Source of the DNA: Trypanosoma brucei
Lineage: Eukaryota
Length of the DNA: 64,000 nt
Direction: 5' to 3'
Assembly (NCBI GenBank): GCA_000002445.1
Contig: CM000208.1
Span: 2,784,001 to 2,848,000 of the forward strand
Both the position numbers and the translations under genes were made by a program. Positions 10,940 to 42,461 of this stretch are shown here, piece by piece (the stretch's first letter is position 1; each line of letters starts with the position of its first letter). The notes under the pieces are model-generated. The model had not been told where the DNA came from. It worked only from the letters and a program-made list of their open reading frames with translations, and did not search any database.

Positions 10940-13210
10940 ATGGATAGCTCGCTTTGCTTCGTGTGCTCTAGGTGTGAGCACCCCATTTGCTCACACGTGG
11001 ATATTATCACCAAGACTGTGAGCAACGGGACGACAGAACATGCGTTTGTTTATGAGATGGAGGACTTGCTGAACATGGACAGACCTGTTCCGTGTTACAG
11101 TGGTGATGAAATATGTGAAACTCGAGTTCACGTTTCTGAAAAAATTCTCAATGTGCCGCTGCCACCAGCCGCCAGGTTGGTGGCACTAGAGGCCTTAGCA
11201 AACTCGCAGCGAGCTCGGGCCCTTGAGGTTGTCCCATCGGGTCCTGTGACGGATGCCGATAACAGCTTGACATCTGAGGTGGGACATGTCACGACGGACA
11301 GCGGGCAAAACCCCCAAGGCAACCATGATGAGGAAGCTGACAACGTCGCTGGCAACAGTTTGGGGCAAATTTCGCGGATTGGTGGGCAGGGACGCTCATC
11401 GCCGAGTTCCCCAACCAATGGTTCCGGTGATGTGTTAACACGATCTCTTGCGCGTTTTTCCCGTACCAAGGAAACTCGTGTGGACCTCATTTGTGTAAAG
11501 GAGGATGTTCTCTCTGGCGGTCTTGCTCGATGCACCACGGATCGTAGCGCCGACACTCCTCCAGTGCCCTTAACATCATCATTGGTTTCTGACGCCCCCG
11601 GAACCGCCTCTGTCGCTGCTGGTGGCGAGGAGAGTGGGGGAGCCAGTGCTTCACTAATGCGTGGGACACAGAGTACCCTGGGAATAGTGTCGCAAACGCC
11701 GACAGCCACGCGGTGGTTACGACACCCAGGAAACCTTATTGTGGAAGAAGGCTTCGTTCAAGTCAGGCGCCGCACCAAAACGTCCCGCTGTCCGTGGTTT
11801 AACACTTATAACTGTTCGGAGCGGCTGGAATGTCCCGACTGCCACCTTGCGTTGGGATACCTTTTTGTTGTTAAACCCACTACTCAAACCCATTCGCACC
11901 ACGCTCCCGCTCCTGGGCCGGAACCCACTGTGATGGAGGATGCAGAGGAAGGCAGCCCTGTGGGGACGCACCGGCTACAACAAAAAAGGGAGCGAAATGA
12001 GGACCAGGAGGAAGTGGTGCTGACAGTATCAGAGGAGACAACTGCTAGAGAGAACTCATCCACGCAGGAGCAGAAGCAGCAGTGTGAAGGGAAAGGTGCT
12101 GATGAGCCGTTCCCCACAACTTTTGTGGGTCTGGAGCTCAAGAAGATACGGCAGCGTCACTGGGGTTTGCGCGACTTCCAGAAACGATATCATCAGGCTA
12201 AAGACCTCAAAACGTTCCGACTGCTGTTTCCGGAAGCCGAGGAGTTGGAAAGTGTTTATAGTCGTCTTGTGGCTCTGCGGACGCAATCTGAGCTTTACGG
12301 CAATCTCCTGCGTAAGCACAAGGAACAGAATGATGTACAATATGCACTTATTGAGAGCCAGAAGGAACGGATAAGCAGTTATGAGGAGAAGCTTAATACT
12401 ATGCAGCAAATCATTGAGGCTCAGAGAGCTCAACTTGACATGCAGTGTAAGCAAATAAAGCACCAGGAGGAGCTGCTACGCAATCACAAAAGCCAGGTGG
12501 CAACGCAGCAGTATCAGATTCACGTCGAACAACTCCTGCGGAGTGAACAGAGCCGTACGATTGAATCACAGCGTGAACAACTAACACTCATGCAGGCCCA
12601 TCTCCGGGCGCGTGTCATGAAAGAGCAGCTGGAAGAGCGTTATGGGCAGCTCATTTCACTTCTTCAGCATGTGGATGAGCAGCAACAGCAACAGGAGTCG
12701 CCGACATCTCCTAGCAGCACCCCTACGCCCTCCCCTAGTGCGCCTTCGCAGGGAACATCGTGCCCAATTTTGCCTCCGGCGCATCTTGTGGGAGTCATCG
12801 GGCGAGATGTTCGTGAACAGTCACGTGTTTCCTCTGAATATAATCGCAGTGAGGGGAGTCATGGCGCACAGGAACGGTACCCCTCACGAGGGTCCACGCT
12901 GCCAACCTTGCTTGTGAACAGAAATGTGCCTCACAATGAGGGTGAGGCAACTGTGGATAACGGGCCCAGTAACAAATTCTCGGCAGGCAGGTCCGTCGCA
13001 TCAGGTGTTTCTGGCGGTAGGGAAAAAAACCACATCCTTTATGGTTGCAGTACGAGTGCTGCCGAGCAGGCGGTGGGAAGTGCAAGAAGAGCCCCGAGAG
13101 AGCGGGCCCAACTAAGCCCCGTCCAGGAGGCTTCGCCAAATAGAAGTAACGCGAGTGGTAACTGTCCAAGGGGGTCCGTAAGCGACACGAGCACGAGTGG
13201 GGAACCGTGA
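10940..13210 (+). CDS. hypothetical protein (N-terminal Cys/His cluster, central coiled-coil)
   Basis: ATG-initiated 756-aa ORF. N-terminal CFVCSRCEHPICSH. Long Q/E/L-rich heptad region (QQIIEAQRAQLDMQCKQIKHQEELLRNHKSQVATQQYQIHVEQLL). S/P-rich C-terminus. Confidence 0.55.
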   Translation: MDSSLCFVCSRCEHPICSHVDIITKTVSNGTTEHAFVYEMEDLLNMDRPVPCYSGDEICETRVHVSEKILNVPLPPAARLVALEALANSQRARALEVVPSGPVTDADNSLTSEVGHVTTDSGQNPQGNHDEEADNVAGNSLGQISRIGGQGRSSPSSPTNGSGDVLTRSLARFSRTKETRVDLICVKEDVLSGGLARCTTDRSADTPPVPLTSSLVSDAPGTASVAAGGEESGGASASLMRGTQSTLGIVSQTPTATRWLRHPGNLIVEEGFVQVRRRTKTSRCPWFNTYNCSERLECPDCHLALGYLFVVKPTTQTHSHHAPAPGPEPTVMEDAEEGSPVGTHRLQQKRERNEDQEEVVLTVSEETTARENSSTQEQKQQCEGKGADEPFPTTFVGLELKKIRQRHWGLRDFQKRYHQAKDLKTFRLLFPEAEELESVYSRLVALRTQSELYGNLLRKHKEQNDVQYALIESQKERISSYEEKLNTMQQIIEAQRAQLDMQCKQIKHQEELLRNHKSQVATQQYQIHVEQLLRSEQSRTIESQREQLTLMQAHLRARVMKEQLEERYGQLISLLQHVDEQQQQQESPTSPSSTPTPSPSAPSQGTSCPILPPAHLVGVIGRDVREQSRVSSEYNRSEGSHGAQERYPSRGSTLPTLLVNRNVPHNEGEATVDNGPSNKFSAGRSVASGVSGGREKNHILYGCSTSAAEQAVGSARRAPRERAQLSPVQEASPNRSNASGNCPRGSVSDTSTSGEP

Positions 13211-15772: not shown

Positions 15773-18304
15773 ATGAGTTCAACCAAAGAGCCGCTACACA
15801 TGTTCTCCTTAGGCGTAACGGAGCGCTCATGGGACGATGATGATGGAAATGCGCAGCATCAGCAGCGTCAACAACCGATGCCGCTTAAGATAGGATCTGA
15901 GCAGGGTGGTGGCGTTTACAACAGTAACGTTGCACAGCTTCAGGCCCATGGGCGGTCCGACTTTGGCGCCACGGGTGAAATTCTGGGGTCGTCATCCTAC
16001 CCGTCCAATACGCCACCACCAGGGACGGGTTCCAATGCAATGGGGTGGGTGCGTTACACTGCGATGGACTTTGAGCTTCTACTCCACGAGGGAAAACAAC
16101 CTACGGATGATATGCGCCGTTCGCAGGTCTACGCTAAGTGGTACCAGACGAAAAGGTTAACTGATGATCGCGTTCTCCCGCCCCTGACAAATCCTCGCTA
16201 TGACGCGAAGGGCGATGCGGAGGCCCCGTGGGATCCTGTGGTCCCCATGCGTATTCAAGGCCAGCAAAGCGTCGCCGGAGGCGGCGGCTCAGAGTTGGTA
16301 GGAAAAGGGGGTATTCGTATGGAGCTAGATACCAAAAACCTTCAGCAGGCACATGAGCAGCAAACGTTCAACCCGTACGCGATGTGCTTTCAACAGCAAG
16401 ACGACAATATAATGAGTCCAGGAACGCAGTTCTTTGGCGCCTATGCACCGACGCCGCTAGCAACGATGGCAACACCAAATACACTGCGTGCCTACGCTCA
16501 CTCTCGTATGGGCACACAGGTTCGCAACAATAACAACGTTAACCGCGGGGAAATTACACAAATCATGGCACCTGTGGCGGGGCAAACGCTTTACAACTCG
16601 GACTGGAATGCGACTGGCGACTTCACAGCAGCTCAAGGCATGGTGCCGAATGTCTGTCAGCAATATTACACTCAAGAACAAATGAACACCTTTGATTATT
16701 ATGCCGACCCGACGGTAGTTAATTACTACAATACGGCAACCACCAATGTGACTGACCACACGCAGATGCAGCCAGCCATAATGGCCATCGCCCCTACGGG
16801 GGATATGGGTGCATTACGTGGTCCTGCTGGTAGCGCTGGTCCAATGGCTGGTCCGAGTGGAGGCGCTACTCGAGGTGGTAGACGTAGCGGTGGTAGGGGA
16901 CGTGGAGGTAACAGCGGCAAATGGGGTTCAGGCGCGGCGAGAGGTCGTGGCACAGCCCCTCGTGAGTCGACGCAGCCGTGCTCCGAGTTGTTGGAACATT
17001 TCCGCACTGACGCGGCGAGTGGTGGAGTAAGCCAGTGGCGCATTGCTCATATTCTTAACCACGCCGTGGAGTTTGCGCAAGATCAAGAGGGTAGTCGCTT
17101 TATTCAGCGTGCAGTGGAGAGCGCCACTCATGATGAGGTGGACGCTCTCTTCCGCGAGATTTTCGAGTCTCCCCTCGAACTGGTAGTTGACGTCTTCGGT
17201 AATTATGTACTGCAGAAGCTTCTTGAGGTGGGAAATGCGCGCCAACTTGCCTACGCTGCCACGCGCTTACAGAACAATGTTGTCAATCTCACCCTTCAAA
17301 CATATGGGTGCCGTGTGATCCAAAAGTGCATTGAGGTGATGCCCCCCGAAGGCCTCGATATTATTCTCTCTGAACTTAGGGGCAATGTAGCGAAATGCAT
17401 TCAGGACCAGAACGGAAACCACGTGGTGCAGAAATGCGTGGAGGTTATTCCGCAACGTTGCGGCTTTATTGTCTCGGCGTTCTCTGGACGGGTGATGGAG
17501 TTGGCCACCCATGCGTACGGTTGCCGCGTTATTCAGTGCATTATGGATCATTGCCCCGACCAGGAGGAAGCCATTTTTTCGGAGTTGCTTGATTGCGTAG
17601 GTACTTTGGCCACAGACCAATACGGTAACTATGTCATTCAACATGTGCTGCAGCACATGAAAGATGATGAAAAGGTGGGACGCATCTTCGACGCCTTGAA
17701 GGGGAACTTCTACGAATCCAGCAAGCAGAAATTTGCATCTAATGTAATGGAGAAACTATTTGTGCGTGCTGACCCTCAGCAGCGTATGGAACTTGTCAAC
17801 ATGATGTGCTCACCTATAGGAGATGACAGTGGTGAACCTGTTGAGGTGTTGTCCTTTAAGCGTTCGTCCGCTCCCAAAAAGGAAAATGTTGAGAAGCAGC
17901 GCAACGAGTACGCCAAAAAGGGCCGTCGCGACAGAGAACGCGATCGCGAGAAGGAGAACTCTCTTGGACTTGTGGTTGAAGTGCAGTTGGCGGGAAGAGA
18001 GCCTCCCAGCATGCTTTGCCTTATGATGCAGAATCCTTTCGCTAATTACGTTGCCCAACGCGTACTTGACGCCGCTCACGTTGATCAGTACGTTTGCCTC
18101 ATCGATAATATTCAAAAGTTCCTGTTGCCCATCAGCACCTACACATATGGTGCCCCAATCGTGCAGCGTTTGGTCCGACGCGAGTTAGTAAAGGCTCCCG
18201 ACGACGTTTCGCTAAATCTCGCAGTGAGTGCTGTTTCTGCAGGGGGAAGGGGCAGTTATGGGCACCACCGCAGGGAAGCGCGCGAGCACTTCGATGCCGA
18301 GTGA
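15773..18304 (+). CDS. Pumilio/PUF-family RNA-binding protein (8 PUF repeats)
   Basis: The track start 15743 is a TTG. The first ATG is 15773 (MSSTKEP). The C-terminal half holds eight recognisable PUF repeats (FGNYVLQKLLEVG, YGCRVIQKCIEV, QNGNHVVQKCVEV, YGCRVIQCIMDH, QYGNYVIQHVLQH, FASNVMEKLF, FANYVAQRVLD). The N-terminal half is Q/G/N-rich low complexity with an RGG-like segment (GGRRSGGRGRGGNSG). Confidence 0.9.
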   Translation: MSSTKEPLHMFSLGVTERSWDDDDGNAQHQQRQQPMPLKIGSEQGGGVYNSNVAQLQAHGRSDFGATGEILGSSSYPSNTPPPGTGSNAMGWVRYTAMDFELLLHEGKQPTDDMRRSQVYAKWYQTKRLTDDRVLPPLTNPRYDAKGDAEAPWDPVVPMRIQGQQSVAGGGGSELVGKGGIRMELDTKNLQQAHEQQTFNPYAMCFQQQDDNIMSPGTQFFGAYAPTPLATMATPNTLRAYAHSRMGTQVRNNNNVNRGEITQIMAPVAGQTLYNSDWNATGDFTAAQGMVPNVCQQYYTQEQMNTFDYYADPTVVNYYNTATTNVTDHTQMQPAIMAIAPTGDMGALRGPAGSAGPMAGPSGGATRGGRRSGGRGRGGNSGKWGSGAARGRGTAPRESTQPCSELLEHFRTDAASGGVSQWRIAHILNHAVEFAQDQEGSRFIQRAVESATHDEVDALFREIFESPLELVVDVFGNYVLQKLLEVGNARQLAYAATRLQNNVVNLTLQTYGCRVIQKCIEVMPPEGLDIILSELRGNVAKCIQDQNGNHVVQKCVEVIPQRCGFIVSAFSGRVMELATHAYGCRVIQCIMDHCPDQEEAIFSELLDCVGTLATDQYGNYVIQHVLQHMKDDEKVGRIFDALKGNFYESSKQKFASNVMEKLFVRADPQQRMELVNMMCSPIGDDSGEPVEVLSFKRSSAPKKENVEKQRNEYAKKGRRDRERDREKENSLGLVVEVQLAGREPPSMLCLMMQNPFANYVAQRVLDAAHVDQYVCLIDNIQKFLLPISTYTYGAPIVQRLVRRELVKAPDDVSLNLAVSAVSAGGRGSYGHHRREAREHFDAE

Positions 18305-21269
18305 AAAAATAAAATAAAATAGTTGATAGGAGTTGTTGGACAGTCTGAGTAAATGGAGGAAAAGAGAAAAGAGAAAAGGGGAATAGTGGGTGGTGTGTGA
18401 CGAAATGTAGAGATGCATCACCGCAGTGAGAGTGACGTCGAATTGGCGTCCAATTTCCATATGAGGTCACGACGTTCCTCACAAGCATGAATAAAATGAA
18501 ATGAAGAAGGAAATTTTTTTTTTTTTAAAAAAGAAAAATCAAAACCAATATCAATTAATAAATAAATATATTGTGTCCCCTCCATTTCCCTTGGTTGTCT
18601 GCTCTTTGTTGTTTTTTTTCTTCATTTTACTATTCATTTTATTTCTCTCCATCATGTCACATAATCCCTCAAGCTGTGACCCAGAGGAGGGAAATGAATA
18701 TCAAGAGGAAAAGATATTATATTTCAACATGTTTTGATGTAGAGAAGGATTGCACGTGTGCGTACACTTGAAGGCGTTTGAAGGAAAGGGAGAAGAAAGA
18801 GGGAGGGGAGAAGGAATTGTGATGGAAAGAAAGAGAAAAAAAAAAGAAAAAAAGAAAAAAAAGGGGGGAAAAAAGAGTAAAGGAAGAGCAAAACTAAGAC
18901 ATGCAAGAAAAAATAATATTAAATGAAGAAAGAAGAAACGAAAAAAAAAATCATATTGAATAATTGAGAGGGAATGATTGTTGTTGTTGTTGTTTTTTTT
19001 TTTTGCTCCCTCTTGTATTTTGTAAAGAAAGAAAAGAAAAAGATACGCGTACATCCCCTTTTCTCTTCATTTTCTTTTTTTCTTTTTTTTTTCCCCCTTT
19101 TGTCTCCTTTCCTACGTGAAGATTAATGCAAAAAAGATATTTTGTTGTTTTTTTCACCTTTTATCCCTCCTGAACTCTCGTTACTTCTGTTATATTTTTA
19201 CGATTTATTACTTCTCACTAGTGTTTTGGATGTTGGTGTTGGTTGAGTGTTCTTTGTGTTTTGTTTTTGTTTTTTATTATTTTGTTTCGGATTCTTATTT
19301 GTTTGTTTTATTTTCAATTTTTTTTTGTTGTGATTTAGCGTAGTGACGAGTGAATGGGACGAGAAGAAATACGATAGTGAATAGGAGAGTTTTTGTTCGT
19401 TTGTTTTTTGTTTTTGTTTTTGTGAAAAAGAGAAGTAAAGAAGGAGGAACCGAGCGGAGAAAAAATGGTGGGATGAAAGACAAAGGAATAAAAAATAAAA
19501 AAATAGGAGTGATGACGATGACTATGATGATGATGAATGGTAGAGAGAATAAATTTTATTATGTTGAGGAGTGTAGTGAAAAGGTGACAAAGAATTTTTG
19601 AAAAGGAAGAGATTTTGCAGGTGGAAAAAAGGGAGACGTTTAGTTTGAAAATGAAAGTAAATTGGCTGAATGGGGAGAGGGATTTTTTTAAAAAAAAAAT
19701 TAGTAATAATAATAATAAAATCAGCGAATAGACGAGTGGAATGGCAAAATAACAATATCAACAACAACAGATTAAAAGGAAGGAAAAAAAAAAATAGAAC
19801 AGAGTAAAAGTAAAAAATGCCAACAGAGCACTACTACCACCGAAATCAAGAACAAAACAAATCAATACAGAAAAAAAAAATACGGAAGAAAGACGATGAG
19901 AAACGAGGGAATTCAGAAAAAGAAAAAAAAATAAGAGAGATAAGGAAGGGGGAGCGCACGAAGATGTGAATGAGTGACAAAGCAAATATAACCAAAAGCA
20001 GTTATTATTATTATTATTTGTTATTGTTATTGTTGTTATTGTTAGTAGACAAGAAGGATGAGTGATAACGACGTACCCATTTTTGTCTGTGTTTATGTTT
20101 GTGCTTGTGTGTTTTTTTTTCCCTGTGATTTGCGAAGAATATAAATATATAAATATATATAAGTATATATAAATAAATATATATAAATATTTACTTATAC
20201 AATATGTGTTCGTCTGTGATGTTTTTGTGTGTGTGTCTATGAGCTGCGAAAAGAATGATGAATGAAAATTTATTTCTTTTAAACACTATGTTTGAAGGAA
20301 GTAAAGGCTATAGATTGTTTGACATCGGTGGTGTGAAAGGGGACAAAAAAGCAAAGAGAGGTCAGCTTTTTGTGTTTCATTTGTTTTCTTTTTTCTCCTT
20401 TTTCTCCTTTTTTTCTTTTTTTCTTTTTTTTAAAATCACCATTGAGGTGAACAGGTAGAGGTGTTGTAGAGATATGAAAGTGGATATAACGACGCAGAGC
20501 GTGGCGTAGACAAAAATTAAAAAAAATTAAAATTAATGCAGAAGAAAGGAGGAAAAGGTGTGTGTGGCGGATCTGGAAGGGGAAGTGACGAAAAAAAAAA
20601 ATGAAAGTGAGAAGCATTCACTATCTCCATTTTTTCCTCTTTATTTTGTTGTGCCCGGGAATTTCTTTTTTTTTTTTCTTATTGGACCTTTAGGGAGGAC
20701 GTTGATGCGTTCTTCTCCAATTTTTGTCTTACTTCTTTTATTTTATTTTATTTTATTTCTTGTTTGTAGTGCTGTGCTTTTTCTTCGTCTTCTCTTTGTC
20801 TGTTTTTCTTTTTCTTTTTTTGTTTTCATGTGCTGTTTGTGCCCCTTCTTACATTTTTTTTTCTACACGCAAATCCATTTGATGGACTTGCTTCTGTGGA
20901 GCTGGGGAATCTCAGTTTCGAAATATACAATAATAATAATATTATTATTATTACATTAATATAAATATTATTATTAGTGGTAATATTTATTGTAGTGTTC
21001 GTATCTTTCCTTTTCTCCTTCCATTCCATTCCATTCCATTCCCTTTTCTTTTTCTTCTCCCTTCTCCCTTTTCCCTCTCCTTTCTTTCCTTCCTTATGTT
21101 CTTTTTCTTTTTCCTTCTGATTTTCCTCATTTTACATGTTGACCTTCCGTTGCAGAGGAGTATTTATTATGCTTGTGTGTATGTGAGGGGGGAAAAAAAG
21201 AAGTGAAAAGAAATGTGAAGGTGAAGGCCGAGTGGGATGCATCGGGACGATTGTTATATTTGCTTCATT

Positions 21270-21360
21270 ATATATTATATATTATATATATATATATATA
21301 TTATTATTATTATTATTACCATTATTGTTAATATTAATATTATTATTACTACTACTATTA
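21270..21360. repeat. compound AT-rich microsatellite ((TATAT)n, (TA)n, (ATT)n, (TAT)n)
   Basis: tatatattatatattatatatatatatatatattattattattattacc... read directly. Confidence 0.85.
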
Positions 21361-23400
21361 CTATTTGCCCGCTCCTTCTCTTCTCTTCTCTTCTTTAATT
21401 AATTTACATTTACTCTTCTCCATTCCCCACCCTAACTTTTTTTGGGCGTCGTTGCGTCTCCTCTGTGCCCCCGATGCCTAAGGTTGCTTTTTGTATTTAT
21501 TTCGCTGTTGTGTTTTCTTGTTTGTTCTTGCGCACGTGTTGGAATGTACATGATTTTCTAAATTAAGAGAGAGAGAAAGAGGAAAAACGAAATATTCGCA
21601 AATGATTATATATTAATATATATATATATATATATAAATATGTGCATGTATATGTTTTTTTTTTGGTTCTATCTACGTGTGTTCGCGTCTGTGTTTGTGT
21701 TTGTCTGTTTGTGTTTCTTTCTCTACGAGGAAAGGCAGTAACTGAAAGGAATGCGTGTAGGATACCTGGGGAAATGGAGGAGAGGGATTTTGTGTTTGTT
21801 CGCCTGTGTGGAGGAATGAATAAAAAATTCTTTTTTTTTTTAAAAAAAAGAAAGGCGACGCAAAAAGAAGAGGGACGGTCGTGGGAGAGGAAAAGAGTTA
21901 TATGAAGTGGGTCATTTAAAAGGAGCAAAAAGAAGAAAAAAAATTAAGGAAAACAAATCAAAACGAATTAAAAAAACAACAACAACAACAGGGTAAATGG
22001 ATGAAAGGGGAGGGGGGAAAAAAAAGGGGGAGAGGAGTAAAGGAGCGAAACGGGAGAAGGGGATCGGTAGAAGAATGACAGGAATATATATTTTATATAT
22101 TATTTAGCTGTGGAGAAATTGAAGTTTAGGGGTGATGAAATGAAAAATGGGAATTAGTGCGTATATATATATATGTGTGTGTGTGTGTGCGCGCGTATGT
22201 ATGGCTATTGTGCAGTACATTTACGAGTTATTTAAACATATGTATCCATCAGGAATAATTGAACATGAAGACAAACAACCAAACAAGCAAATGAAACGGA
22301 ATAGATAAATGAGAAGCAGAAGGTGAACATGATGGAGTTTTGAGTGTGTGTGTGTGTGAGTGTGTGCATTTGGTGGTGTAAGAGTAGGAGGAGGGAAGTG
22401 AGGCGTTAGTATAATGAGGAAAAAGATGAGAAAGCATTTTCTTCTTTTCTTCTTCTGAAAAAAATAAAAAGGAGAAGAGGGGGAATGTCAACTGGGAAGG
22501 GAAGACAAGGCAAAGTGCGAATCCTTCCCCGCATGCCTGTTTTATTCTTTCCTTTTCTTTTGTTTTTTAGCAATTGCTGCTGCTGAGGGCCCACTGTTTT
22601 TGTTTATTCCTTTTGTTATACGCCCTTCATCTTCTCTTTTGTTTCTCTTTCCCTCCTTCTTCACCTTCACCCTTGTTTTTTTTCTTTTTCTATTTCATTC
22701 ACTTTCCTTCTTCTATCAGTCACCATATATACACGTGTGAGTTTGTTAGCGGTACCGTCTTGTTACTACTTTTATTTGGCTGCTTTTTTTGTTTTCACTT
22801 TGTTTTTCTGTGGCATTGAACACCATTGTCAAAACCTGCCTCCAGTGATGTTCATTCATTCATTCATTCAACTATTTTATTTGATTTTATTTTTGCGCAT
22901 GTGTACTCCTGCCATCTTTCCATCCATTCCAGTCATCCTGCGTAGTTGAACTTTCCCCTCGTTCCTTTTTTTTTTCTATTTTTTTGTAAAATATTTACAT
23001 TAGTTATAAAAGTGTTGATATGTCCATTGTAGCGCACTCGTAACACCTTCCGTGCATTCAGCATTTGCCCATACATTTTAATTTGCTTATCAATATATGA
23101 ATATATAAATATATAAATATATATATATTTATGTGCATTGATAATTGCACGCGTTGGGAGAAGGAAATGCGGGGCACGTGGTGGCAACGGCAAATGATTT
23201 CGCAAGGATTGACAGCAGATATTTGTGTAATGTCCCCCCCCCAAAAAAAAATAATAGTAATAAATAAATAACAAAAAACAGAAAGAAAAAAAGAACAACA
23301 ACAAAAAGAAACAAAACCGGGTGTAGAAAAATGTACACACACAAAAAAAAAAGAAAAGAGATTATGAATTAAAGGCGTGCAGGAAATTCTTTGTAAAGAA

Positions 23401-23475
23401 CTTTTAGTTTCACTCTGCTCTCTTTTATCTCCTTACTGCTCTGAACACCATTATTTTTTATTTTTATTACTTCGT
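23401..23475 (+). promoter_or_regulatory. polypyrimidine tract plus AG upstream of small ORF 23612
   Basis: cttttagtttcactctgctctcttttatctccttactgctctgaacaccattattttttatttttattacttcgttttcttgcatctacataag. Confidence 0.4.
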
Positions 23476-37075: not shown

Positions 37076-37284
37076 TGGGTCAGTTGCACATACCTGTAGG
37101 CGGTGCCCTTGCGCCATTATATTCTTTTCCACCCAATCTCATAAACTTTTTACACAGTAGGAAACCTAAGAAACCCGCATATTCGGGTTGAACACCGGCT
37201 TTTGTTTGCCGTGATTCCTGACTCGTGCGGGACGTATTGTTGGGGAGCTTTAGTGGAAAATCGAGAGCATTAGAGTTTCTCTTA

Positions 37285-40200
37285 ATGTACACTACGACAG
37301 CCAAACAGCCCACAGTGGTGGGGGAGCGCGCTTTTTCCATGTCGGAGAAAGTTCTCACGTTCCCTTCCGCCGTAACTTCAATGACAGTTACCCCGGATCA
37401 CGTGTGGCTGGTCATGTCTGACGGAGGTGTGCAGATACGTGATGTTTCCACCACGGAGTTGGTTCACTGCTTCGCTAGCGCATCAAGACCGAGGCGTGTG
37501 GTACGTATATGGTCGATTCTCGCTGTTCCAGATCCTGCTGTGGGGTTACAGGTATGGATGGGGCTGTCCAATGGTGCCGTCGAGGTCTATGACGCACAAA
37601 CTTTCGGCGTATTGCGCCAGCAGACGAAGCACGCGGGTGGGGTATATTGTCTTGCCGAGTTTGGCGGGTACGTGTACTCAGGGAGCAGTGACTTCAAGAT
37701 TGGGCAGTGGTACGCCGCGGACGCACGCCTCGTGCGGATGCTGCACGGTCATAGCAATTATGTGCGCTGTCTTTATGCCGAGGGCAACGCCGTTGTGAGT
37801 GGGTCCGATGATTGTACGGTACGTGTATGGGATGTAGGAAGCGGTGACGCCCAGTTAACGGGACGCTTTCACGACCGCTCGGCCGTGTCTGCTCTGTGTC
37901 GTGTAGGCATTACGATGTGGTCTGGTGATGATAGTGGCCGTGTTGCGGTGTGGAGGCTCGACACATGTGAGGCTTTACACATTCTTCAGGCACATAGCGG
38001 TCGCGTTTCGTCACTGAAGAAGGTTGGATCACGTGTGTACTCTGGTGGCGCAGATGGCGTGATTGCTGTATTTGATGCGGAGGAGGGTCGTTTGCTGAGC
38101 CACGTGAATAATTACCACGGTGTTCGTGTCTCTTCTCTTGTTGTAACGTCGGAGCTGCGACGGTTTTGTATCTGGTCCTCTAGTGCGGACAAGATGATTC
38201 AGTGTTGGCACCAGGATGAGTATACTGTTATGATAGGTGATCAGGAAAGGTTTTCAGAACGTTTTTGGTACGAAACAGGTTCGACACCGTACCGTGAGTT
38301 CCGGGACAGTGTTCTGAAGCACATCGGTAACCTGCGAGAGACACTCAAGATAAGAACGTCCGACAATCCACGTTTAGTAGATATAGTGGGTTTATCTAAC
38401 TCCGCATCGACTGTGGAGGGTTTTCGGAAACGGGAAGCCATACTCAATAAGGAGCTTTCGTCTCTGGAGGGTCGCCAAGCATCACTGGAGAGTCAACTGG
38501 AGCAGTCGAAGGGAGTACTGGAGAATATAGAAAAGGAAACGAGCTTGGTGCTTGGCATTCTTCGTGCAGCTCAAGCTGAGCTTCGATCGCTGGACCCCGT
38601 TTTGCATGGCTCTCTTCTCATGTCGGCAGGAGGCGATGCGAATGGACCGCTTGCAAATATTGTTAGCACGCTATCGGGTCAACCGGCAACAATGACTAAC
38701 GTGCCGAACCCACCTGGCAACTTGGCTGTTCCGACTTCTACCGCTGCAACGACGTCTGCTTGGCCAGCAATTCCCTCAGCAGCTGCGGTGGGTAGTGGAG
38801 CTCAATACGCTGCGTATCAGCCCACTGCAATTCAGGGGCATCCCTTCTATGTAGGCACTCCAGCAACTTATACCCAACCTGCCTCGGTCTCGCACCCAGT
38901 CGCTGGCGTCAGTGGGGCGACAGTGTCCAATTTGCAGAGCCCCGTTCCCCCAGTTCAGGTGTGTGGAACGACTCCTACTGGGGTGTCAACGGCACAAATT
39001 CCTGGTGGCCAGGGTGTGGCCTTTACGGCATTACAACCGGCCGGCACCATGGCTGTGGGAGGACCAACAGGTTCAACAAATGCTGTTCAACAAGTTCCCA
39101 CAGCTGCTACCACACCCAGCGGCACGACTGCCGCAGCAATGGTTGGCGCACTACCGCCTGGTCAGAGCACAGCCACCACATCAGCCCAACCACTCGGAAC
39201 CGCGGCTGCGGGAGCAATGGCTGGCGCACTACCGCCTGGTCAGAGCATAGCCACCACATCAGCCCAACCACTCGGAACCGCGGCTGCGGGAGCAATGGCT
39301 GGCGCACTACCGCCTGGTCAGAGCATAGCCACCACATCAGCCCAACCACTCGGAACCGCGGCTGCAGGAGCAATGGCTGGCGCACTACCGCCTGGTCAGA
39401 GCATAGCCACCACATCAGCCCAACCACTCGGAACCGCGGCTGCGGGAACGATGGCTGGCGCACTACCGCCTGGTCAGAGCATAGCCACCACATCAGCCCA
39501 ACCACTCGGAACCGCGGCTGCGGGAACGATGGCTGGCGCACTACCGCCTGGTCAGAGCATAGCCACCACATCAGCCCAACCACTCGGAACCGCGGCTGCA
39601 GGAGCAATGGCTGGCGCACTACCGCCTGGTCAGAGCATAGCCACCACATCAGCCCAACCACCTAGCACCTTGGGTGTAGGAGGGTCAACAGGGGCTCCAA
39701 CATTTGGACAAAACTTTGCTGTGTCGCTGCAACCTTCGACTGCCACCACCTCCGTTGGGCCGGCTGGGTTAACGTCTTCTGCGGCAAACATGGCAGTTTC
39801 TTCTCAGCCGTTGGGCGCCTCAACTGTCGTTGATGCTTCGGGGCCACTACACAGCGGCCAAAGCCTGACTGGGTCGGCGCATCCGCTCTCTACTCAGGCT
39901 TCCGGAAAACTGATGGGAACGGCATCGGCTGGTGAAAGTGTAACTACGCCCTTTCAACCATTGGGTGCCACTGCAAATGGTAGCTCTTTGGTGTTCACAA
40001 CCGCTGGTCAGAGTTTAACAGCTATACCACAATCTCTTGGGGTCGCATCTACCGGGCAGTCAACGGCACAAATTCCTGGTGGCCAGGGTGTGGCCTTTAC
40101 GGCGTTACAACCGGCTGGCACCATGGCTGTGGGAGGACCAACAGGTTCAACAAATGCTGTTCAACAAGTTCCCACAGCTGCTACCACACCCAGCGGCACG

Positions 40201-40602
40201 ACTGCCGCAGCAATGGCTGGCGCACTACCGCCTGGTCAGAGCATAGCCACCACATCAGCCCAACCACTCGGAACCGCGGCTGCAGGAGGGCCAGCAGGGA
40301 AACCCCCTGTTGAGCAAGATTTTTTATCCACGAAGCGCGTCGTTCCACCCGTTTCTCGTTGTGGAACCGCGCCCCCGTCCAAACACGTCCATTTCGAGCA
40401 GGTAGCTGAAGCTACCACCAGTGGCGGTGTGGTCTACAGGGGCGTAGAATGGACCAATAAAAACGTCGGCAATTATATCCAGCGCCGTTACTACGGGGCG
40501 GAACCAAGTCTTCGGACCCCGGCTCTTGAAAAGCGCAGGAGATTGCAAGGTCGTATGCCGGACGTTAAGTTAGAGCCGTTCAAAAGGAAAGACGAGGGAT
40601 GA
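37285..40602 (+). CDS. WD40-repeat protein with coiled-coil and long A/T/G/P/Q-rich repetitive C-terminal region
   Basis: The track start 37225 is a GTG. The first ATG is 37285, with a second at 37339. The N-terminal 330 aa hold classic WD repeats (GHSNYVRCLYAEGNAVVSGSDDCTVRVWDV). A coiled-coil lies at about residues 400-450. The remainder is low complexity, including a 78-nt tandem array and a duplicated 230-nt block. Short conserved C-terminal tail (VVYRGVEWTNKNVGNYIQRRYYG). Confidence 0.8.
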   Translation: MYTTTAKQPTVVGERAFSMSEKVLTFPSAVTSMTVTPDHVWLVMSDGGVQIRDVSTTELVHCFASASRPRRVVRIWSILAVPDPAVGLQVWMGLSNGAVEVYDAQTFGVLRQQTKHAGGVYCLAEFGGYVYSGSSDFKIGQWYAADARLVRMLHGHSNYVRCLYAEGNAVVSGSDDCTVRVWDVGSGDAQLTGRFHDRSAVSALCRVGITMWSGDDSGRVAVWRLDTCEALHILQAHSGRVSSLKKVGSRVYSGGADGVIAVFDAEEGRLLSHVNNYHGVRVSSLVVTSELRRFCIWSSSADKMIQCWHQDEYTVMIGDQERFSERFWYETGSTPYREFRDSVLKHIGNLRETLKIRTSDNPRLVDIVGLSNSASTVEGFRKREAILNKELSSLEGRQASLESQLEQSKGVLENIEKETSLVLGILRAAQAELRSLDPVLHGSLLMSAGGDANGPLANIVSTLSGQPATMTNVPNPPGNLAVPTSTAATTSAWPAIPSAAAVGSGAQYAAYQPTAIQGHPFYVGTPATYTQPASVSHPVAGVSGATVSNLQSPVPPVQVCGTTPTGVSTAQIPGGQGVAFTALQPAGTMAVGGPTGSTNAVQQVPTAATTPSGTTAAAMVGALPPGQSTATTSAQPLGTAAAGAMAGALPPGQSIATTSAQPLGTAAAGAMAGALPPGQSIATTSAQPLGTAAAGAMAGALPPGQSIATTSAQPLGTAAAGTMAGALPPGQSIATTSAQPLGTAAAGTMAGALPPGQSIATTSAQPLGTAAAGAMAGALPPGQSIATTSAQPPSTLGVGGSTGAPTFGQNFAVSLQPSTATTSVGPAGLTSSAANMAVSSQPLGASTVVDASGPLHSGQSLTGSAHPLSTQASGKLMGTASAGESVTTPFQPLGATANGSSLVFTTAGQSLTAIPQSLGVASTGQSTAQIPGGQGVAFTALQPAGTMAVGGPTGSTNAVQQVPTAATTPSGTTAAAMAGALPPGQSIATTSAQPLGTAAAGGPAGKPPVEQDFLSTKRVVPPVSRCGTAPPSKHVHFEQVAEATTSGGVVYRGVEWTNKNVGNYIQRRYYGAEPSLRTPALEKRRRLQGRMPDVKLEPFKRKDEG
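38986..39215 (+). repeat. copy 1 of a roughly 230-nt intragenic duplication (copy 2 at 40060-40285, about 97% identical)
   Basis: tcaacggcacaaattcctggtggccagggtgtggcctttacggc...cagcccaaccactcggaaccgcggctgc occurs twice. It encodes STAQIPGGQGVAFTALQPAGTMAVGGPTGSTNAVQQVPTAATTPSGTTAAAM(V/A)GALPPGQS... Confidence 0.85.
39125..39660 (+). repeat. 78-nt tandem repeat, about 6.9 copies, encoding AMAGALPPGQSIATTSAQPLGTAAAG
   Basis: Near-identical 26-aa units with A/T variation at unit position 1 and one S-T/I change, read directly from sequence and translation. The minus-strand and alternate-frame ORFs here (39107..39661 and 38961..39665) are artefacts of the repeat. Confidence 0.9.
40060..40285 (+). 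repeat. copy 2 of the intragenic duplication
   Basis: See 38986-39215. Confidence 0.85.
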
Positions 40603-40860
40603 TAGAGAGTTACAAAGCCGTTAAAAGCGTTTCCGGTAAATGGCGTTAAAAAGTATATAGATATTTTTCCATAGAAATTGTCACGGCTTTTTGTGGTGTT
40701 GTTACTCAGGCTGTTTTTTCCGAGGAAACTTCGGGTATCAGGGTGTTGTGTCTTGATCCACTGACTGCCTTTTCTTTATTTACCATCTGACTAGGAACAG
40801 TAATACTGTAGCCTCTACAGTATTGAGAGCGCGGCGCTGACTAACTAGGTGGAATAGACC

Positions 40861-42461
40861 ATGAGAAGCGCGCAGTTCCCACTTGCAGCAATACCGCCCC
40901 CACCACCATCAGCAGCAGTCCCACAACCACCAATGGCAGCAGTCCCGCAACCACCAATGGCAGCAGTCCCGCAACCTCCAATGGCAACAGTCCCGCAACC
41001 ACCAATGGCAGCAGTCCCACAACCACCATCAGCAGCAGTCCCACAACCACCAATGGCAGCAGTCCCGCAACCACCAATGGCAGCAGTCCCACAACCACCA
41101 TCAGCAGCAGTCCCGCAACCACCAATGGCAGCAGTCCCGCAACCACCAATGGCAGCAGTCCCGCAACCTCCAATGGCAGCAGTCCCGCAACCTCCAATGG
41201 CAACAGTCCCGCAACCACCAAGGCAGCAGTCCCACAACCGCCAATGGCAGCAGTCCCACAACCACCATTGGCAGCAGTCCCACAACCACCAATGGCAGCA
41301 GTCCCACAACCTCCAATGGCAGCAGTCCCACAACCACCAATGGCAGCAGTCCCACAACCACCAATGGCAGCAGTCCCACAACCACCAATGGCAGCAGTCC
41401 CACAACCACCATCAGCAGCAGTCCCACAACCACCATCAGCAGCAGTCCCGCAACCACCAATGGCAGCAGTCCCGCAACCACCAATGGCAGCAGTCCCACA
41501 ACCACCATCAGCAGCAGTCCCACAACCACCAATGGCAGCAGTCCCACAACCACCAATGGCAGCAGTCCCACAACCTCCAATGGCAGCAGTCCCACAACCA
41601 CCAATGGCAGCAGTCCCACAACCTCCAATGGCAGCAGTCCCACAACCACCAATGGCAGCAGTCCCACAACCACCAATGGCAGCAGTCCCGCAACCTCCAA
41701 TGGCAGCAGTCCCGCAACCTCCAATGGCAGCAGTCCCGCAACCTCCAATGGCAGCAGTCCCACAACCACCAAAGGCAGCAGTCCCACAACCACCAATGGC
41801 AGCAGTCCCGCAACCACCAATGGCAGCAGCGCGACAGTCACCGCTGGTGGTGGCCCCGGCGTGCCCACCAACTTCCGATGGGCTAAATGCTACTGATGGC
41901 ACGGGTAGTGGATTATCAAAAAGTCTTGTAATACCATCTGCTGCCGGGGGGTTGGCAGTATCATTGTCCGAGACTCAGCAAACTCGTGGATACGGAAGAG
42001 AAACGGAGGAGATTTTTTCAGGTAACCACCCCACTAGCAACCCCAATTTACTGTCTCATTCACCTTTGCTTGCAGGTCTTCCTTCCTGGAACATCCCAAG
42101 TGCTTCAAGTTCTACTTGGGCGGGGTCGACAGTAACTCAAGTCTTTGTGCCCCAGCTGGATGCTGTCCCAGCGCGCAGCGTCATCTTACCGACTGCGGTG
42201 TGGTTTGACGACAGACTAGAGCGTGTAGTTGTTCCTCGAGTGAATGCCACTTCTTCGGTGCCAAAGGGATTACAAGAGGAAGGTTCTAGGCAGCGGTTAA
42301 AGCCGTCATTCAAACGAGTGAAGGACAAATACCTCTGGCGGCTGCCACCGTCGAAAGAGGGTATAGCAAGTGAGTTGTGGCGTGGAGTTTACTGGAAGCA
42401 TGTTGATGTGCATCGTTACGTTTCCAGGCGGTATTTTGGGGGACCGCCACCGGTTGAATAA
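40861..42461 (+). CDS. repetitive proline/alanine-rich protein, (PPMAAVPQ)n about 39 copies plus a unique 200-aa C-terminal domain. The reading frame is broken by a 1-nt deletion near nt 41220
   Basis: ATG 40861 (MRSAQFPLAAIPPPPPSAAVPQ) follows a polyY/AG context and reads (PPMAAVPQ)n until about 41220, where one unit is 23 nt (ccaccaa-ggcagcag, lacking the T of ATG) and shifts the frame. The ORF 41244..42461 continues the same repeat in the next frame into a unique C-terminus ending VYWKHVDVHRYVSRRYFGGPP. It is either a sequencing or assembly error in the array or a genuine pseudogenising frameshift. Confidence 0.5.
40896..41832 (+). repeat. 24-nt tandem repeat array (about 39 units; consensus ccaccaatggcagcagtccc[a/g]caa)
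   Basis: Read directly. Variants include cct/cca, atg to tca (Ser), atg to aag (Lys), and one 23-nt unit. All six frames are open across it, which produces the many overlapping artefactual ORFs on both strands. Confidence 0.95.

What the first reader, a model, noticed from the sequence alone, without database searches (positions are those of the whole stretch)
40896..41832. About 39 tandem 24-nt units encoding (PPMAAVPQ)n with a single 23-nt unit that splits the gene into two reading frames
The array is nearly perfect, with variants Met to Ser, Thr, Lys or Leu. At about 41215-41222 one unit reads ccaccaa-ggcagcag and lacks one T. The ORF that begins at a well-placed ATG (40861, after a polyY/AG context) then leaves the PPMAAVPQ frame and runs into (QQSHNHQWQ)n. 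The PPMAAVPQ frame continues from 41244 into a unique C-terminal domain and a stop at 42461. This is either a collapse or expansion error typical of repeat assembly, or a real frameshift. A real frameshift would make this locus a recent pseudogene, or a gene expressed from an internal Met with a different N-terminus. Because all six frames are open across the array, the automated ORF track shows many artefactual ORFs on both strands.
Basis: seen in the sequence. Interest (0 to 1): 0.6.

Follow-up and report, generated by a model that had tools for sequence, protein, structure and literature searches.

The report
Frameshifted proline-repeat gene in trypanosome reference
A single missing base inside a 39-unit coding repeat splits one conserved Trypanosoma brucei gene in the TREU927 reference sequence; two related strains lack the break, so it is most likely a sequencing or assembly error, or a lesion private to this strain, and not new biology.

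Summary
Window 40903-41837 holds 39 tandem units encoding (PPMAAVPQ)n, and exactly one unit (41215-41237) is 23 nt. The ORF from ATG 40861 therefore leaves the repeat frame and stops at 41886. The repeat frame resumes from ATG 41244 and ends at 42461.

The window is T. brucei brucei TREU927 chromosome 10. The 405-aa ORF from 41244 is the deposited gene model XP_823392.1.

Variation between units is synonymous-biased only in the PPMAAVPQ frame, on both sides of the break. Orthologues across trypanosomatids, syntenic upstream of RESC5, join a proline-rich N-terminus directly to the same conserved C-terminal motif.

The 23-nt unit is not shared. T. b. gambiense DAL972 has 31 clean 24-nt units. 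T. b. equiperdum IVM-t1 has 24 clean in-frame units after the same ATG. Each of these assemblies has a different private lesion elsewhere.

About 3 kb upstream, the TREU927 sequence also lacks 1.8 kb that the other two assemblies carry, and this fuses two WD40 genes.

Best reading: one 533-aa gene (40861-42461), broken by a reference-specific one-base error or haplotype-collapse artefact (about 0.6). A real lesion private to the strain or to one allele is about 0.28. Read-level data are needed to decide. Interest is low.

The parts
40768..40794 (+). Polypyrimidine tract (CCTTTTCTTT, 40768-40777, continuing as a pyrimidine-rich stretch) followed by the first AG at 40793-40794. Putative spliced-leader acceptor for this gene.
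   Evidence: Regex scan and sequence. No ATG lies between this AG and 40861. The function is inferred and was not tested.
40861..40902 (+). Probable true start codon and unique N-terminus, MRSAQFPLAAIPPP. The first array unit (from 40903) continues it as PPSAAVPQ.
   Evidence: It is the first ATG after in-frame stops. It is identical in IVM-t1. It resembles orthologue N-termini such as MSAFVPPPPPP.
40903..41214 (+). Upstream sub-array: 13 units of 24 nt, in the PPMAAVPQ frame as read from ATG 40861.
   Evidence: Differences from the consensus unit are 12 synonymous and 11 non-synonymous in this frame, against 2/21 and 3/20 in the other two frames.
41215..41237 (+). The single 23-nt unit, CCACCAAGGCAGCAGTCCCACAA. 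One base is missing (ATG minus T, or AAG minus A). This is the frameshift point.
   Evidence: It is absent from the DAL972 array and from the IVM-t1 array.
41238..41837 (+). Downstream sub-array: 24 units of 24 nt plus the terminal degenerate unit PPMAAARQ.
   Evidence: Differences are 13 synonymous and 11 non-synonymous in the PPMAAVPQ frame, against 0/24 and 3/21 in the other frames.
40861..41886 (+). The 341-aa ORF as it stands in the sequence: N-terminus, 13 units, then an out-of-frame (QQSHNHQW)n tail.
   Evidence: This product is not on record in the protein collection.
41244..42461 (+). The deposited gene model: 405 aa, XP_823392.1 / EAN78564.1 / Q389F6, 'hypothetical protein, conserved', T. 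brucei brucei TREU927. It starts at the first in-frame Met after the break.
   Evidence: 100% identity over 405/405 residues.
41838..42461 (+). Unique C-terminal region, mostly disordered, containing the conserved family motifs, followed by the stop codon.
   Evidence: HMMER hits to trypanosomatid orthologues and alignment A1. The AlphaFold model has mean pLDDT 56.5, with a beta-hairpin at residues 125-134 and a helix at 186-204.
42378..42440 (+). Family-defining C-terminal motif WRGVYWKHVDVHRYVSRRYFG, followed by GPPPVE and the stop.
   Evidence: The invariant columns W186 R187 W191 D195 V196 H197 R198 Y199 R202 Y204 G206 P208 P209 are shared by 15 sequences. The motif was located by the scan.
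40435..40497 (+). Related motif YRGVEWTNKNVGNYIQRRYYG near the C-terminus of the neighbouring WD40 gene.
   Evidence: Pairwise BLASTP gives 11/25 identities, E = 7e-07. The motif is conserved in the T. cruzi and T. melophagium WD40-B orthologues.

Best explanation
Positions 40861-42461 are one gene of T. brucei TREU927 chromosome 10. It lies immediately upstream of RESC5 (Tb927.10.11870), so by numbering it is probably Tb927.10.11860; that identifier is from memory and was not verified.

The gene encodes a protein of about 533 aa that is largely disordered. The protein has a short unique N-terminus, a lineage-specific expansion of about 39 PPMAAVPQ octapeptides, and a C-terminal region with short conserved motifs. 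The last motif is a predicted helix, WRGVYWxHVDVHRYIARRYFGxPPPxE, which is shared by orthologues throughout the Trypanosomatidae.

In the reference sequence one repeat unit lacks one base. The annotators therefore started the model at the next in-frame Met (41244; 405 aa).

The missing base is private to this assembly. Most likely it is a base-calling, assembly-join or haplotype-collapse artefact inside an array that single Sanger reads cannot span from unique anchors.

What is shown: the anatomy, the coding frame on both sides, the orthology and synteny, and the absence of the lesion from two other strains. What is inferred: that the lesion is an artefact; that the polypyrimidine/AG site near 40794 is the splice acceptor; and that the repeat acts as an extended polyproline-type spacer or ligand while the C-terminal helix is a docking motif shared with the neighbouring WD40 protein.
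For: 1. Identity of the window. The 405-aa ORF and the neighbouring 1105-aa protein are each 100% identical to TREU927 entries, including the order of repeat variants.

2. Coding frame. Of 47 differences between units and the consensus, 25 are synonymous in the PPMAAVPQ frame, against 2 and 6 in the other frames. The ratio is the same upstream (12/11) and downstream (13/11) of the 23-nt unit. The upstream half is in that frame only when read from ATG 40861.

3. Start codon. 40861 is the first ATG after in-frame stops and after the polypyrimidine/AG site. All 11 ATGs before 41244 are in its frame.

4. Orthologues. T. grayi, T. cruzi, T. melophagium, Angomonas, Novymonas, Phytomonas and others have a proline-rich N-terminus that begins at the initiator Met, joined to the same C-terminal motifs. 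The gene order WD40-A, WD40-B, this gene, RESC5 is conserved in T. melophagium and T. cruzi.

5. The lesion is not shared. DAL972 has 31 units, all of 24 nt, continuous with the C-terminal domain. IVM-t1 has the identical ATG and N-terminus and 24 clean units. Each of these assemblies has a different private lesion. DAL972 has an extra T at codon 9. IVM-t1 has a cluster of indels in units 25-28, and that assembly used only 7,508 PacBio reads.

6. The neighbourhood is structurally aberrant in this assembly. A 620-bp segment is duplicated 1,832 bp apart in both DAL972 and IVM-t1 but is single in the window. This fuses WD40 genes A and B into XP_823391.1.

7. Literature. The TREU927 assembly is a collapsed mosaic of two haplotypes with collapsed repeats. 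In T. brucei, internal repeats whose length differs between alleles produce apparent frameshifts on collapsing (PMC8445201).
Against: No TREU927 reads or independent TREU927 assembly could be examined, so a real deletion is not excluded.

TREU927 chromosome 10 is finished Sanger sequence, where single-base errors are rare. The 23-nt unit lies only about 355 nt from the left unique flank, within reach of good-quality reads.

All three Trypanozoon assemblies carry some lesion in this gene. That could instead mean relaxed constraint in this subgenus.

The arrays differ in unit number and order (39, 33 and 31 units), so positional homology of the broken unit cannot be established.

The DAL972 and IVM-t1 assemblies are of lower quality than TREU927.
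Confidence: 0.6

Rival explanations
1. The one-base deletion is real in TREU927, fixed or on one allele only. It creates a null or truncated allele. Ribosomes starting at AUG 40861 would make a 341-aa product with an out-of-frame QQSHNHQW tail and without the conserved C-terminal module.
For: The base is missing in a finished reference sequence. Allele-specific premature stops exist in T. brucei and are tolerated because nonsense-mediated decay is lacking (PMC8445201). The other two Trypanozoon assemblies also have private lesions in this gene.
Against: The gene is conserved and syntenic across trypanosomatids. There is no second lesion and no decay of the C-terminal domain, which is 213/213 identical to T. 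equiperdum OVI. The coding signature is equal on both sides of the break. The lesion is not shared with DAL972 or IVM-t1. The same assembly shows a structural collapse 3 kb upstream.
Confidence: 0.28
2. The deposited model is correct as it stands. The functional gene starts at 41244 (405 aa), and the upstream 13 units with ATG 40861 are a dispensable leader. More generally, because nearly every unit carries an in-frame AUG, the array buffers the gene against frameshifts near its 5' end by allowing downstream initiation.
For: Orthologue N-termini such as MTMAAVPTPP (T. grayi) and MLTAAVPPP (T. cruzi) look like a single repeat unit that begins with Met. In DAL972 the upstream ATG gives only an 8-codon ORF (MKSAQFPL*), after which an in-frame array AUG follows. 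Three strains show three different lesions that all leave some AUG-containing units in frame with the C-terminal domain.
Against: In TREU927, scanning ribosomes meet 11 AUGs in the other frame before 41244. That ORF stops only at 41886, downstream of every array AUG, so reinitiation cannot rescue the frame. There is no polypyrimidine run of 8 or more inside the array for an internal spliced-leader site. The upstream units keep the synonymous-biased pattern of coding sequence.
Confidence: 0.07
3. Programmed recoding restores the frame at the 23-nt unit, through a -1 ribosomal frameshift, transcriptional slippage or U-insertion editing.
For: The only support is that a one-base deficit could formally be corrected by a -1 shift, and that the missing base may be a T (U).
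Against: There is no X XXY YYZ slippery heptamer in frame anywhere from 40861 to 41260. The only homopolymer run of 5 or more in the gene's repeat region is CCCCC at 40897. The downstream sequence is the same repeat as everywhere else. From established knowledge, U-insertion editing acts on mitochondrial transcripts, not nuclear ones. The other strains encode the frame directly.
Confidence: 0.01

Closest known systems
Repeat-associated apparent frameshifts and collapsed repeats in T. brucei genome assemblies (Cosentino, Brink and Siegel 2021, PMC8445201)
   Same: A coding tandem repeat in a diploid genome assembled as a haplotype mosaic. The ORF is truncated by an indel inside the repeat, and the gene model is shortened. 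Neighbouring near-identical segments are collapsed.
   Different: That paper documents the effect mainly for a PacBio assembly of Lister 427. Here the assembly is Sanger-finished TREU927, and this locus is not mentioned in the text or in the supplement parts that were held. No read-level proof is available here.
Trypanosomatid 'hypothetical protein' orthologues: T. grayi XP_009314237.1 (257 aa), T. cruzi PBJ71819.1 (191 aa), T. melophagium XP_067186549.1 (227 aa), Novymonas KAK7196927.1 (425 aa), Phytomonas CCW66219.1 (315 aa)
   Same: The C-terminal motifs (the block aligned with the kinetoplastid consensus W.NRYDLQPSPS, of which only P176 and S177 are invariant; WRGxYWxHVDVHRYIARRYFGxPPPxE at the extreme C-terminus). 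A proline-rich N-terminus with A-x-VP-x-PP motifs. A position directly upstream of RESC5.
   Different: The orthologues have at most a few short proline-rich repeats (T. grayi has 5 x PPAATVPPP). The 31-39-unit PPMAAVPQ array is specific to the T. brucei group. None of these proteins has a described function.
Cornifin / small proline-rich (SPRR) family, Pfam PF02389 (the name given to the T. equiperdum fragments)
   Same: Tandem P/Q-rich octapeptide periodicity. There is a weak Pfam hit (E = 2.6e-06, 28.1 bits).
   Different: The score is below Pfam's gathering cut-off of 34.8 bits. The hit covers only the repeat. From my own knowledge, SPRR proteins are vertebrate epidermal cross-linking substrates with Gln/Lys-rich head and tail domains, which are absent here. 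The name is a compositional mis-annotation.

Membership tests
Cornifin (SPRR), Pfam PF02389 | Whole-protein score at or above Pfam's gathering threshold | tested here: not met
   28.1 bits against a cut-off of 34.8. The match is confined to the repeat, residues 7-106 of the 405-aa model.
Conserved trypanosomatid family (orthologues of T. cruzi PBJ71819.1 and T. grayi XP_009314237.1) | C-terminal motif WRGxYWxHVDVHRYIARRYFGxPPPxE at the extreme C-terminus, plus the block aligned with the kinetoplastid consensus W.NRYDLQPSPS | tested here: met
   phmmer E-values run from 1.5e-20 to 4e-05 for 14 trypanosomatid proteins. Fifteen columns are invariant in alignment A1, including P176 and S177; in T. 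brucei the W.NRYDLQPSPS block reads KDKYLWRLPPS.
Conserved trypanosomatid family (orthologues of T. cruzi PBJ71819.1 and T. grayi XP_009314237.1) | Syntenic position between the WD40-B gene and RESC5 | tested here: met
   L003 (T. melophagium), L004 and L005 (T. cruzi), L002 and L009 (Trypanozoon). RESC5 = Tb927.10.11870.
Conserved trypanosomatid family (orthologues of T. cruzi PBJ71819.1 and T. grayi XP_009314237.1) | Proline-rich N-terminus continuous with the C-terminal module in one ORF from the first AUG | tested here: not met
   In the window as it stands the ORF is split at 41215-41237. The feature is met if one base is restored, giving 533 aa. In DAL972 the array is continuous with the C-terminal domain.
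Unitary (fixed) pseudogene in the T. brucei group | The same disabling lesion shared by related strains, and/or accumulation of further lesions | tested here: not met
   The 23-nt unit is absent from DAL972 and IVM-t1. The three assemblies have three different lesions. The C-terminal domain is intact.
Programmed -1 ribosomal frameshift site | Slippery heptamer X XXY YYZ at the shift point | tested here: not met
   No such heptamer occurs in frame between 40861 and 41260.
Assembly or sequencing artefact in a coding tandem repeat | The lesion is private to one assembly, and there is independent evidence of collapse nearby | tested here: met
   The lesion is private to the TREU927 sequence. A 1.8-kb A/B WD40 collapse or deletion lies 3 kb upstream, relative to two other assemblies.
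Assembly or sequencing artefact in a coding tandem repeat | Independent reads of the same strain show a 24-nt unit at this position | not testable with these tools
   No TREU927 reads or second TREU927 assembly are reachable. The rows of Cosentino's Supplementary Table S2 for chromosome 10 were cut from the stored copy.

The most novel reading that the evidence does not exclude
The frameshift is real. The gene tolerates it because almost every octapeptide unit carries an in-frame AUG, so the conserved C-terminal module can still be made from a downstream unit. On this reading the Met-containing repeat acts as a multi-start buffer. That would explain why three Trypanozoon strains carry three different lesions near the 5' end or inside the array while the C-terminal domain stays intact.
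Probability: 0.07. Interest if true: 0.5.

Novelty: new member of a known kind. Interest (0 to 1): 0.17.

Why it matters
The main consequence is for curation of a heavily used reference genome. The deposited model XP_823392.1 probably lacks its first 128 codons and starts at a false Met. This affects N-terminal tagging, knockout and RNAi design, orthology tables and proteomic databases.

The same neighbourhood hides a second problem. WD40 gene A is missing from the TREU927 proteome because it is fused to gene B.

The work also gives a first description of a pan-trypanosomatid family of disordered proline-rich proteins. The family has a conserved C-terminal helix motif that is shared with the adjacent WD40 protein, and its function is unknown.

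If the frameshift were real, TREU927 would be a natural mutant, at least on one allele, of a conserved gene. That would be of modest interest.

Tried and rejected
1. Exact-protein look-ups of the 405-aa and 341-aa ORFs and of P0003 found no contig on record.

2. A word-based homology search with the N-terminal 120 aa found nothing relevant. No deposited Trypanozoon protein starts with MRSAQF.

3. A search for the gene identifiers Tb927.10.11860 and Tb927.10.11850 found no paper with these identifiers in its main text. Cosentino's supplementary size-ratio table would give the length of the Lister 427 orthologue, but the stored copy is truncated before chromosome 10.

4. The TREU927 Nanopore paper has nothing on this locus.

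5. Logan contigs from T. brucei runs (L007, L008, L012) are short and do not reach the array. ERR7929157 is not TREU927, because its 410-aa neighbouring protein differs.

6. Both T. equiperdum OVI contigs stop short. L001 ends inside the array, and L011 ends near the WD40 duplication.

7. The profile built from the family alignment matched no solved structure. The AlphaFold model is too poor (mean pLDDT 56.5, pTM 0.19) for a fold search, so none was run.

8. Bacterial promoter and terminator scans, tRNA search and Rfam search gave nothing relevant.

9. Membership of the Cornifin/SPRR family was rejected because the score is below threshold.

10. Programmed frameshifting was rejected because there is no slippery site.

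11. The restored protein has no Lys or Arg between residues 2 and 305. The frameshift product yields only very short or very long tryptic peptides.
Full report
**What is in the sequence**

Tandem Repeats Finder reports a single array at 40912-41829: period 24, 38.3 copies, 93% matches, score 1521. I parsed it in the register CCN CCN ATG GCN GCN GTC CCN CAA. This gives:
- a first Ser-variant unit at 40903;
- twelve more 24-nt units up to 41214;
- one 23-nt unit at 41215-41237 (CCACCAAGGCAGCAGTCCCACAA);
- twenty-four 24-nt units from 41238 to 41813;
- a terminal degenerate unit (PPMAAARQ) at 41814-41837.

The ORF from ATG 40861 reads MRSAQFPLAAIPPPPP followed by 13 units. It then moves into (QQSHNHQW)n and stops at 41886. 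The ORF from ATG 41244 carries PPMAAVPQ into a unique C-terminal region and stops at 42461.

First, Thr replaces Ala, not Met. Second, the broken unit could equally be the Lys variant CCACCAAAGG (seen at 41766) minus one A. Third, only four of the six frames are completely open.

**Where the window comes from**

The 405-aa ORF is 405/405 identical, including the order of repeat variants, to XP_823392.1 / Q389F6, 'hypothetical protein, conserved', of T. brucei brucei TREU927. The upstream WD40 ORF is 1105/1105 identical to XP_823391.1 of the same strain. The downstream 310-aa gene is RESC5, which is Tb927.10.11870.

All large ORFs are on the + strand, as expected for a trypanosome polycistronic unit.

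The window is therefore the TREU927 chromosome 10 reference. The frameshift is part of the deposited sequence, and the annotators dealt with it by starting the model at the next in-frame Met. The identifier Tb927.10.11860 for this gene is my inference from the numbering and was not verified.

**Which frame is coding**

Of the 47 single-base differences between units and the consensus unit, 25 are synonymous in the PPMAAVPQ frame. In the other two frames the counts are 2 and 6. The ratio is the same upstream of the break (12 synonymous, 11 not) and downstream of it (13 and 11).

The variable sites are the third positions of two Pro codons, the Met codon, and one Ala codon.

The upstream 13 units are in this frame only when read from ATG 40861. 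That ATG is the first one after in-frame stops, and the first after a polypyrimidine tract (40768-40777) and its AG at 40793. So both halves of the array are, or very recently were, parts of one coding sequence beginning at 40861. Restoring one base gives a 533-aa protein.

**What the gene is**

An exhaustive phmmer search with the C-terminal 212 aa found 17 proteins. All informative hits come from trypanosomatids: T. grayi, T. cruzi, T. melophagium, Angomonas, Novymonas, Phytomonas, and unnamed Logan contigs. All are 'hypothetical'.

They share four features:
- a proline-rich N-terminus beginning at the initiator Met, for example MSAFVPPPPPPGVVVPPPPPP or MTMAAVPTPPAATVPPPPP;
- a short V-x-P-x-V-x-hydrophobic block, predicted as a beta-hairpin;
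- a block with the kinetoplastid consensus W.NRYDLQPSPS, of which only P176 and S177 are invariant;
- an invariant extreme C-terminus, WRGxYWxHVDVHRYIARRYFGxPPPxE.

In T. melophagium and T. cruzi the orthologue sits in the same place, after two WD40 genes and directly before RESC5.

AlphaFold with this alignment predicts a mostly disordered chain (mean pLDDT 56.5). It has one confident beta-hairpin and a C-terminal helix over the invariant motif. No solved structure matches the profile.

A related 25-residue motif closes the neighbouring WD40-B protein (E = 7e-07 pairwise).

The large PPMAAVPQ array is specific to the T. brucei group. Other species have only a few proline-rich motifs here. In T. 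cruzi and T. melophagium, however, the WD40-A gene ends in very similar octapeptide or 16-mer arrays.

My functional reading is inference only. I take the protein to be a disordered polyproline-type spacer or ligand with a C-terminal docking helix that it shares with its WD40 neighbour.

The name 'Cornifin (SPRR) family' given to the T. equiperdum fragments rests on a sub-threshold compositional Pfam hit (28.1 bits against a cut-off of 34.8) and should be disregarded.

**Is the 23-nt unit shared?**

Three other Trypanozoon assemblies were reached.

- T. equiperdum OVI: the contig simply ends inside the array.
- T. b. equiperdum IVM-t1 (L002): it has the identical 5' region and ATG, followed by 24 clean 24-nt units in frame and no 23-nt unit. 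Further on it has a cluster of indels within about 100 nt (+1, a compensated pair, +3), so only a 213-aa fragment was annotated. That assembly used only 7,508 PacBio RS II reads polished with MiSeq data. Residual long-read errors are therefore plausible there.
- T. b. gambiense DAL972 (L009): I reached it through the WD40-B protein. It has 31 units, every one exactly 24 nt, continuous with the C-terminal domain. Its private lesion is an extra T at codon 9 of the unique N-terminus (CTT to CTTT, giving MKSAQFPL*), together with two substitutions and a 3-nt deletion.

So the arrays differ in length (39, 33 and 31 units). Each assembly has a different lesion, and the TREU927 lesion is private to TREU927.

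**Context that raises the prior for an artefact**

About 3 kb upstream, a 620-bp segment (window 37503-38122) is present once in the window. In both DAL972 and IVM-t1 it is present twice, at 99.2% identity and 1,832 bp apart.

Those strains, like T. cruzi and T. melophagium, have two WD40 genes: A (453 aa) and B. The protein cluster for gene A has no TREU927 member. The TREU927 protein XP_823391.1 is the N-terminus of A joined to the rest of B. This is either a real recombinational deletion or an assembly collapse.

Cosentino et al. state that the TREU927 assembly is a collapsed mosaic of both haplotypes and that repeats are collapsed in it. They also state that internal repeats whose length differs between alleles give apparent frameshifts on collapsing (PMC8445201).

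**Could the deposited 405-aa model be what the cell makes?**

This is unlikely from the sequence as it stands. Eleven AUGs precede 41244 (40861 and ten in the array), all in the other frame after the shift. The ORF they open ends at 41886, beyond every array AUG. Neither leaky scanning nor reinitiation would readily reach 41244 (the scanning model is established knowledge, and its application here is inference).

The array has no pyrimidine run longer than five bases, so an internal spliced-leader acceptor is improbable. There is no slippery heptamer or long homopolymer that would allow programmed recoding.

If the deletion is real, the allele is most probably null for the conserved C-terminal module.

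**Verdict**

The feature is real in the deposited sequence and was described accurately. The best explanation is one 533-aa gene (40861-42461) of a conserved trypanosomatid family. It is broken in the TREU927 reference by a private one-base deficit, which is most likely a sequencing, assembly-join or haplotype-collapse artefact (about 0.6). A genuine lesion private to the strain or to one allele is the main rival (about 0.28). The idea that Met-containing units allow downstream initiation is a minor rival (about 0.07).

I could not obtain TREU927 reads, a second TREU927 assembly, or the length of the Lister 427 orthologue, so the last step remains open.

This is a curation-level finding. It is one more case of a known kind of repeat-associated gene-model truncation, and it deserves a low interest score. 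It does have practical value for anyone working on this gene or on the adjacent WD40 genes.

Noticed in passing
window 37503-38122 (within ORF 37225-40602); L009 8386-9005 and 10218-10835; L002 4321-4940 and 6152-6769: A 620-bp segment is single in the window but duplicated in both T. b. gambiense DAL972 and T. b. equiperdum IVM-t1 (99.2% identity, 1,832 bp apart). Those strains, like T. cruzi and T. melophagium, have two WD40 genes, A (453 aa) and B. The TREU927 protein XP_823391.1 (1105 aa) is the N-terminus of A fused to the rest of B, and no TREU927 gene A is in the protein collection. This is either a real deletion or an assembly collapse in the reference.
   Followed up: partly
window 40435-40497 and 42378-42440: The two adjacent genes share a C-terminal motif of about 25 aa: YRGVEWTNKNVGNYIQRRYYG and WRGVYWKHVDVHRYVSRRYFG (pairwise E = 7e-07). 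The motif is conserved in both gene families across Trypanosoma. It is predicted helical and its function is unknown.
   Followed up: partly
L004 201-2123 (T. cruzi) and L003 844-2820 (T. melophagium): In these species the WD40-A gene ends in long proline-rich arrays, (SVPAPPTA)n and (TVPQPPTASVPPPPAS)n, that closely resemble the T. brucei PPMAAVPQ unit. T. brucei-group gene A (453 aa) lacks such an array. The expanded array therefore sits in a different gene of the same cluster in different lineages.
   Followed up: no
window 39128-39661; L009 around 11838-12345: A second coding tandem array (78-nt period, 6.8 copies, 97% matches) lies in the WD40 gene. In DAL972 the WD40-B gene is annotated as two pieces (739 aa and 270 aa), with the break at the end of this array. 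This looks like another repeat-associated ORF break in a different assembly.
   Followed up: no
L009 13416-13460 (DAL972) compared with window 40861-40905: DAL972 has an extra T (CTT to CTTT), two substitutions and a 3-nt deletion in the unique N-terminus. As a result the upstream ATG gives only MKSAQFPL*. The deposited 429-aa DAL972 model starts at the Met equivalent to the TREU927 model's start (L009:13534), not at the first in-frame Met (L009:13510). This suggests annotation transfer.
   Followed up: partly
L002 9823-9922 (IVM-t1): A cluster of indels within about 100 nt of the array (a 25-nt unit, a unit with compensating indels, and a 51-nt double unit) truncates the annotated gene to 213 aa. 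It is probably residual long-read error in an assembly built from 7,508 PacBio reads.
   Followed up: partly
window 18300-25100: An AT-rich stretch (GC 0.32-0.44, against about 0.50 elsewhere) of about 6.8 kb has no ORF of 200 aa or more, although it lies inside an otherwise dense same-strand gene array. No tRNA or Rfam family was found there.
   Followed up: no
window 41823-42461 compared with P0002 and L009: The C-terminal domain has two amino-acid states that split the strains. TREU927 and T. equiperdum OVI have NATDG and RETEEIF. IVM-t1 and DAL972 have NAIDG and RETQEIF.
   Followed up: no
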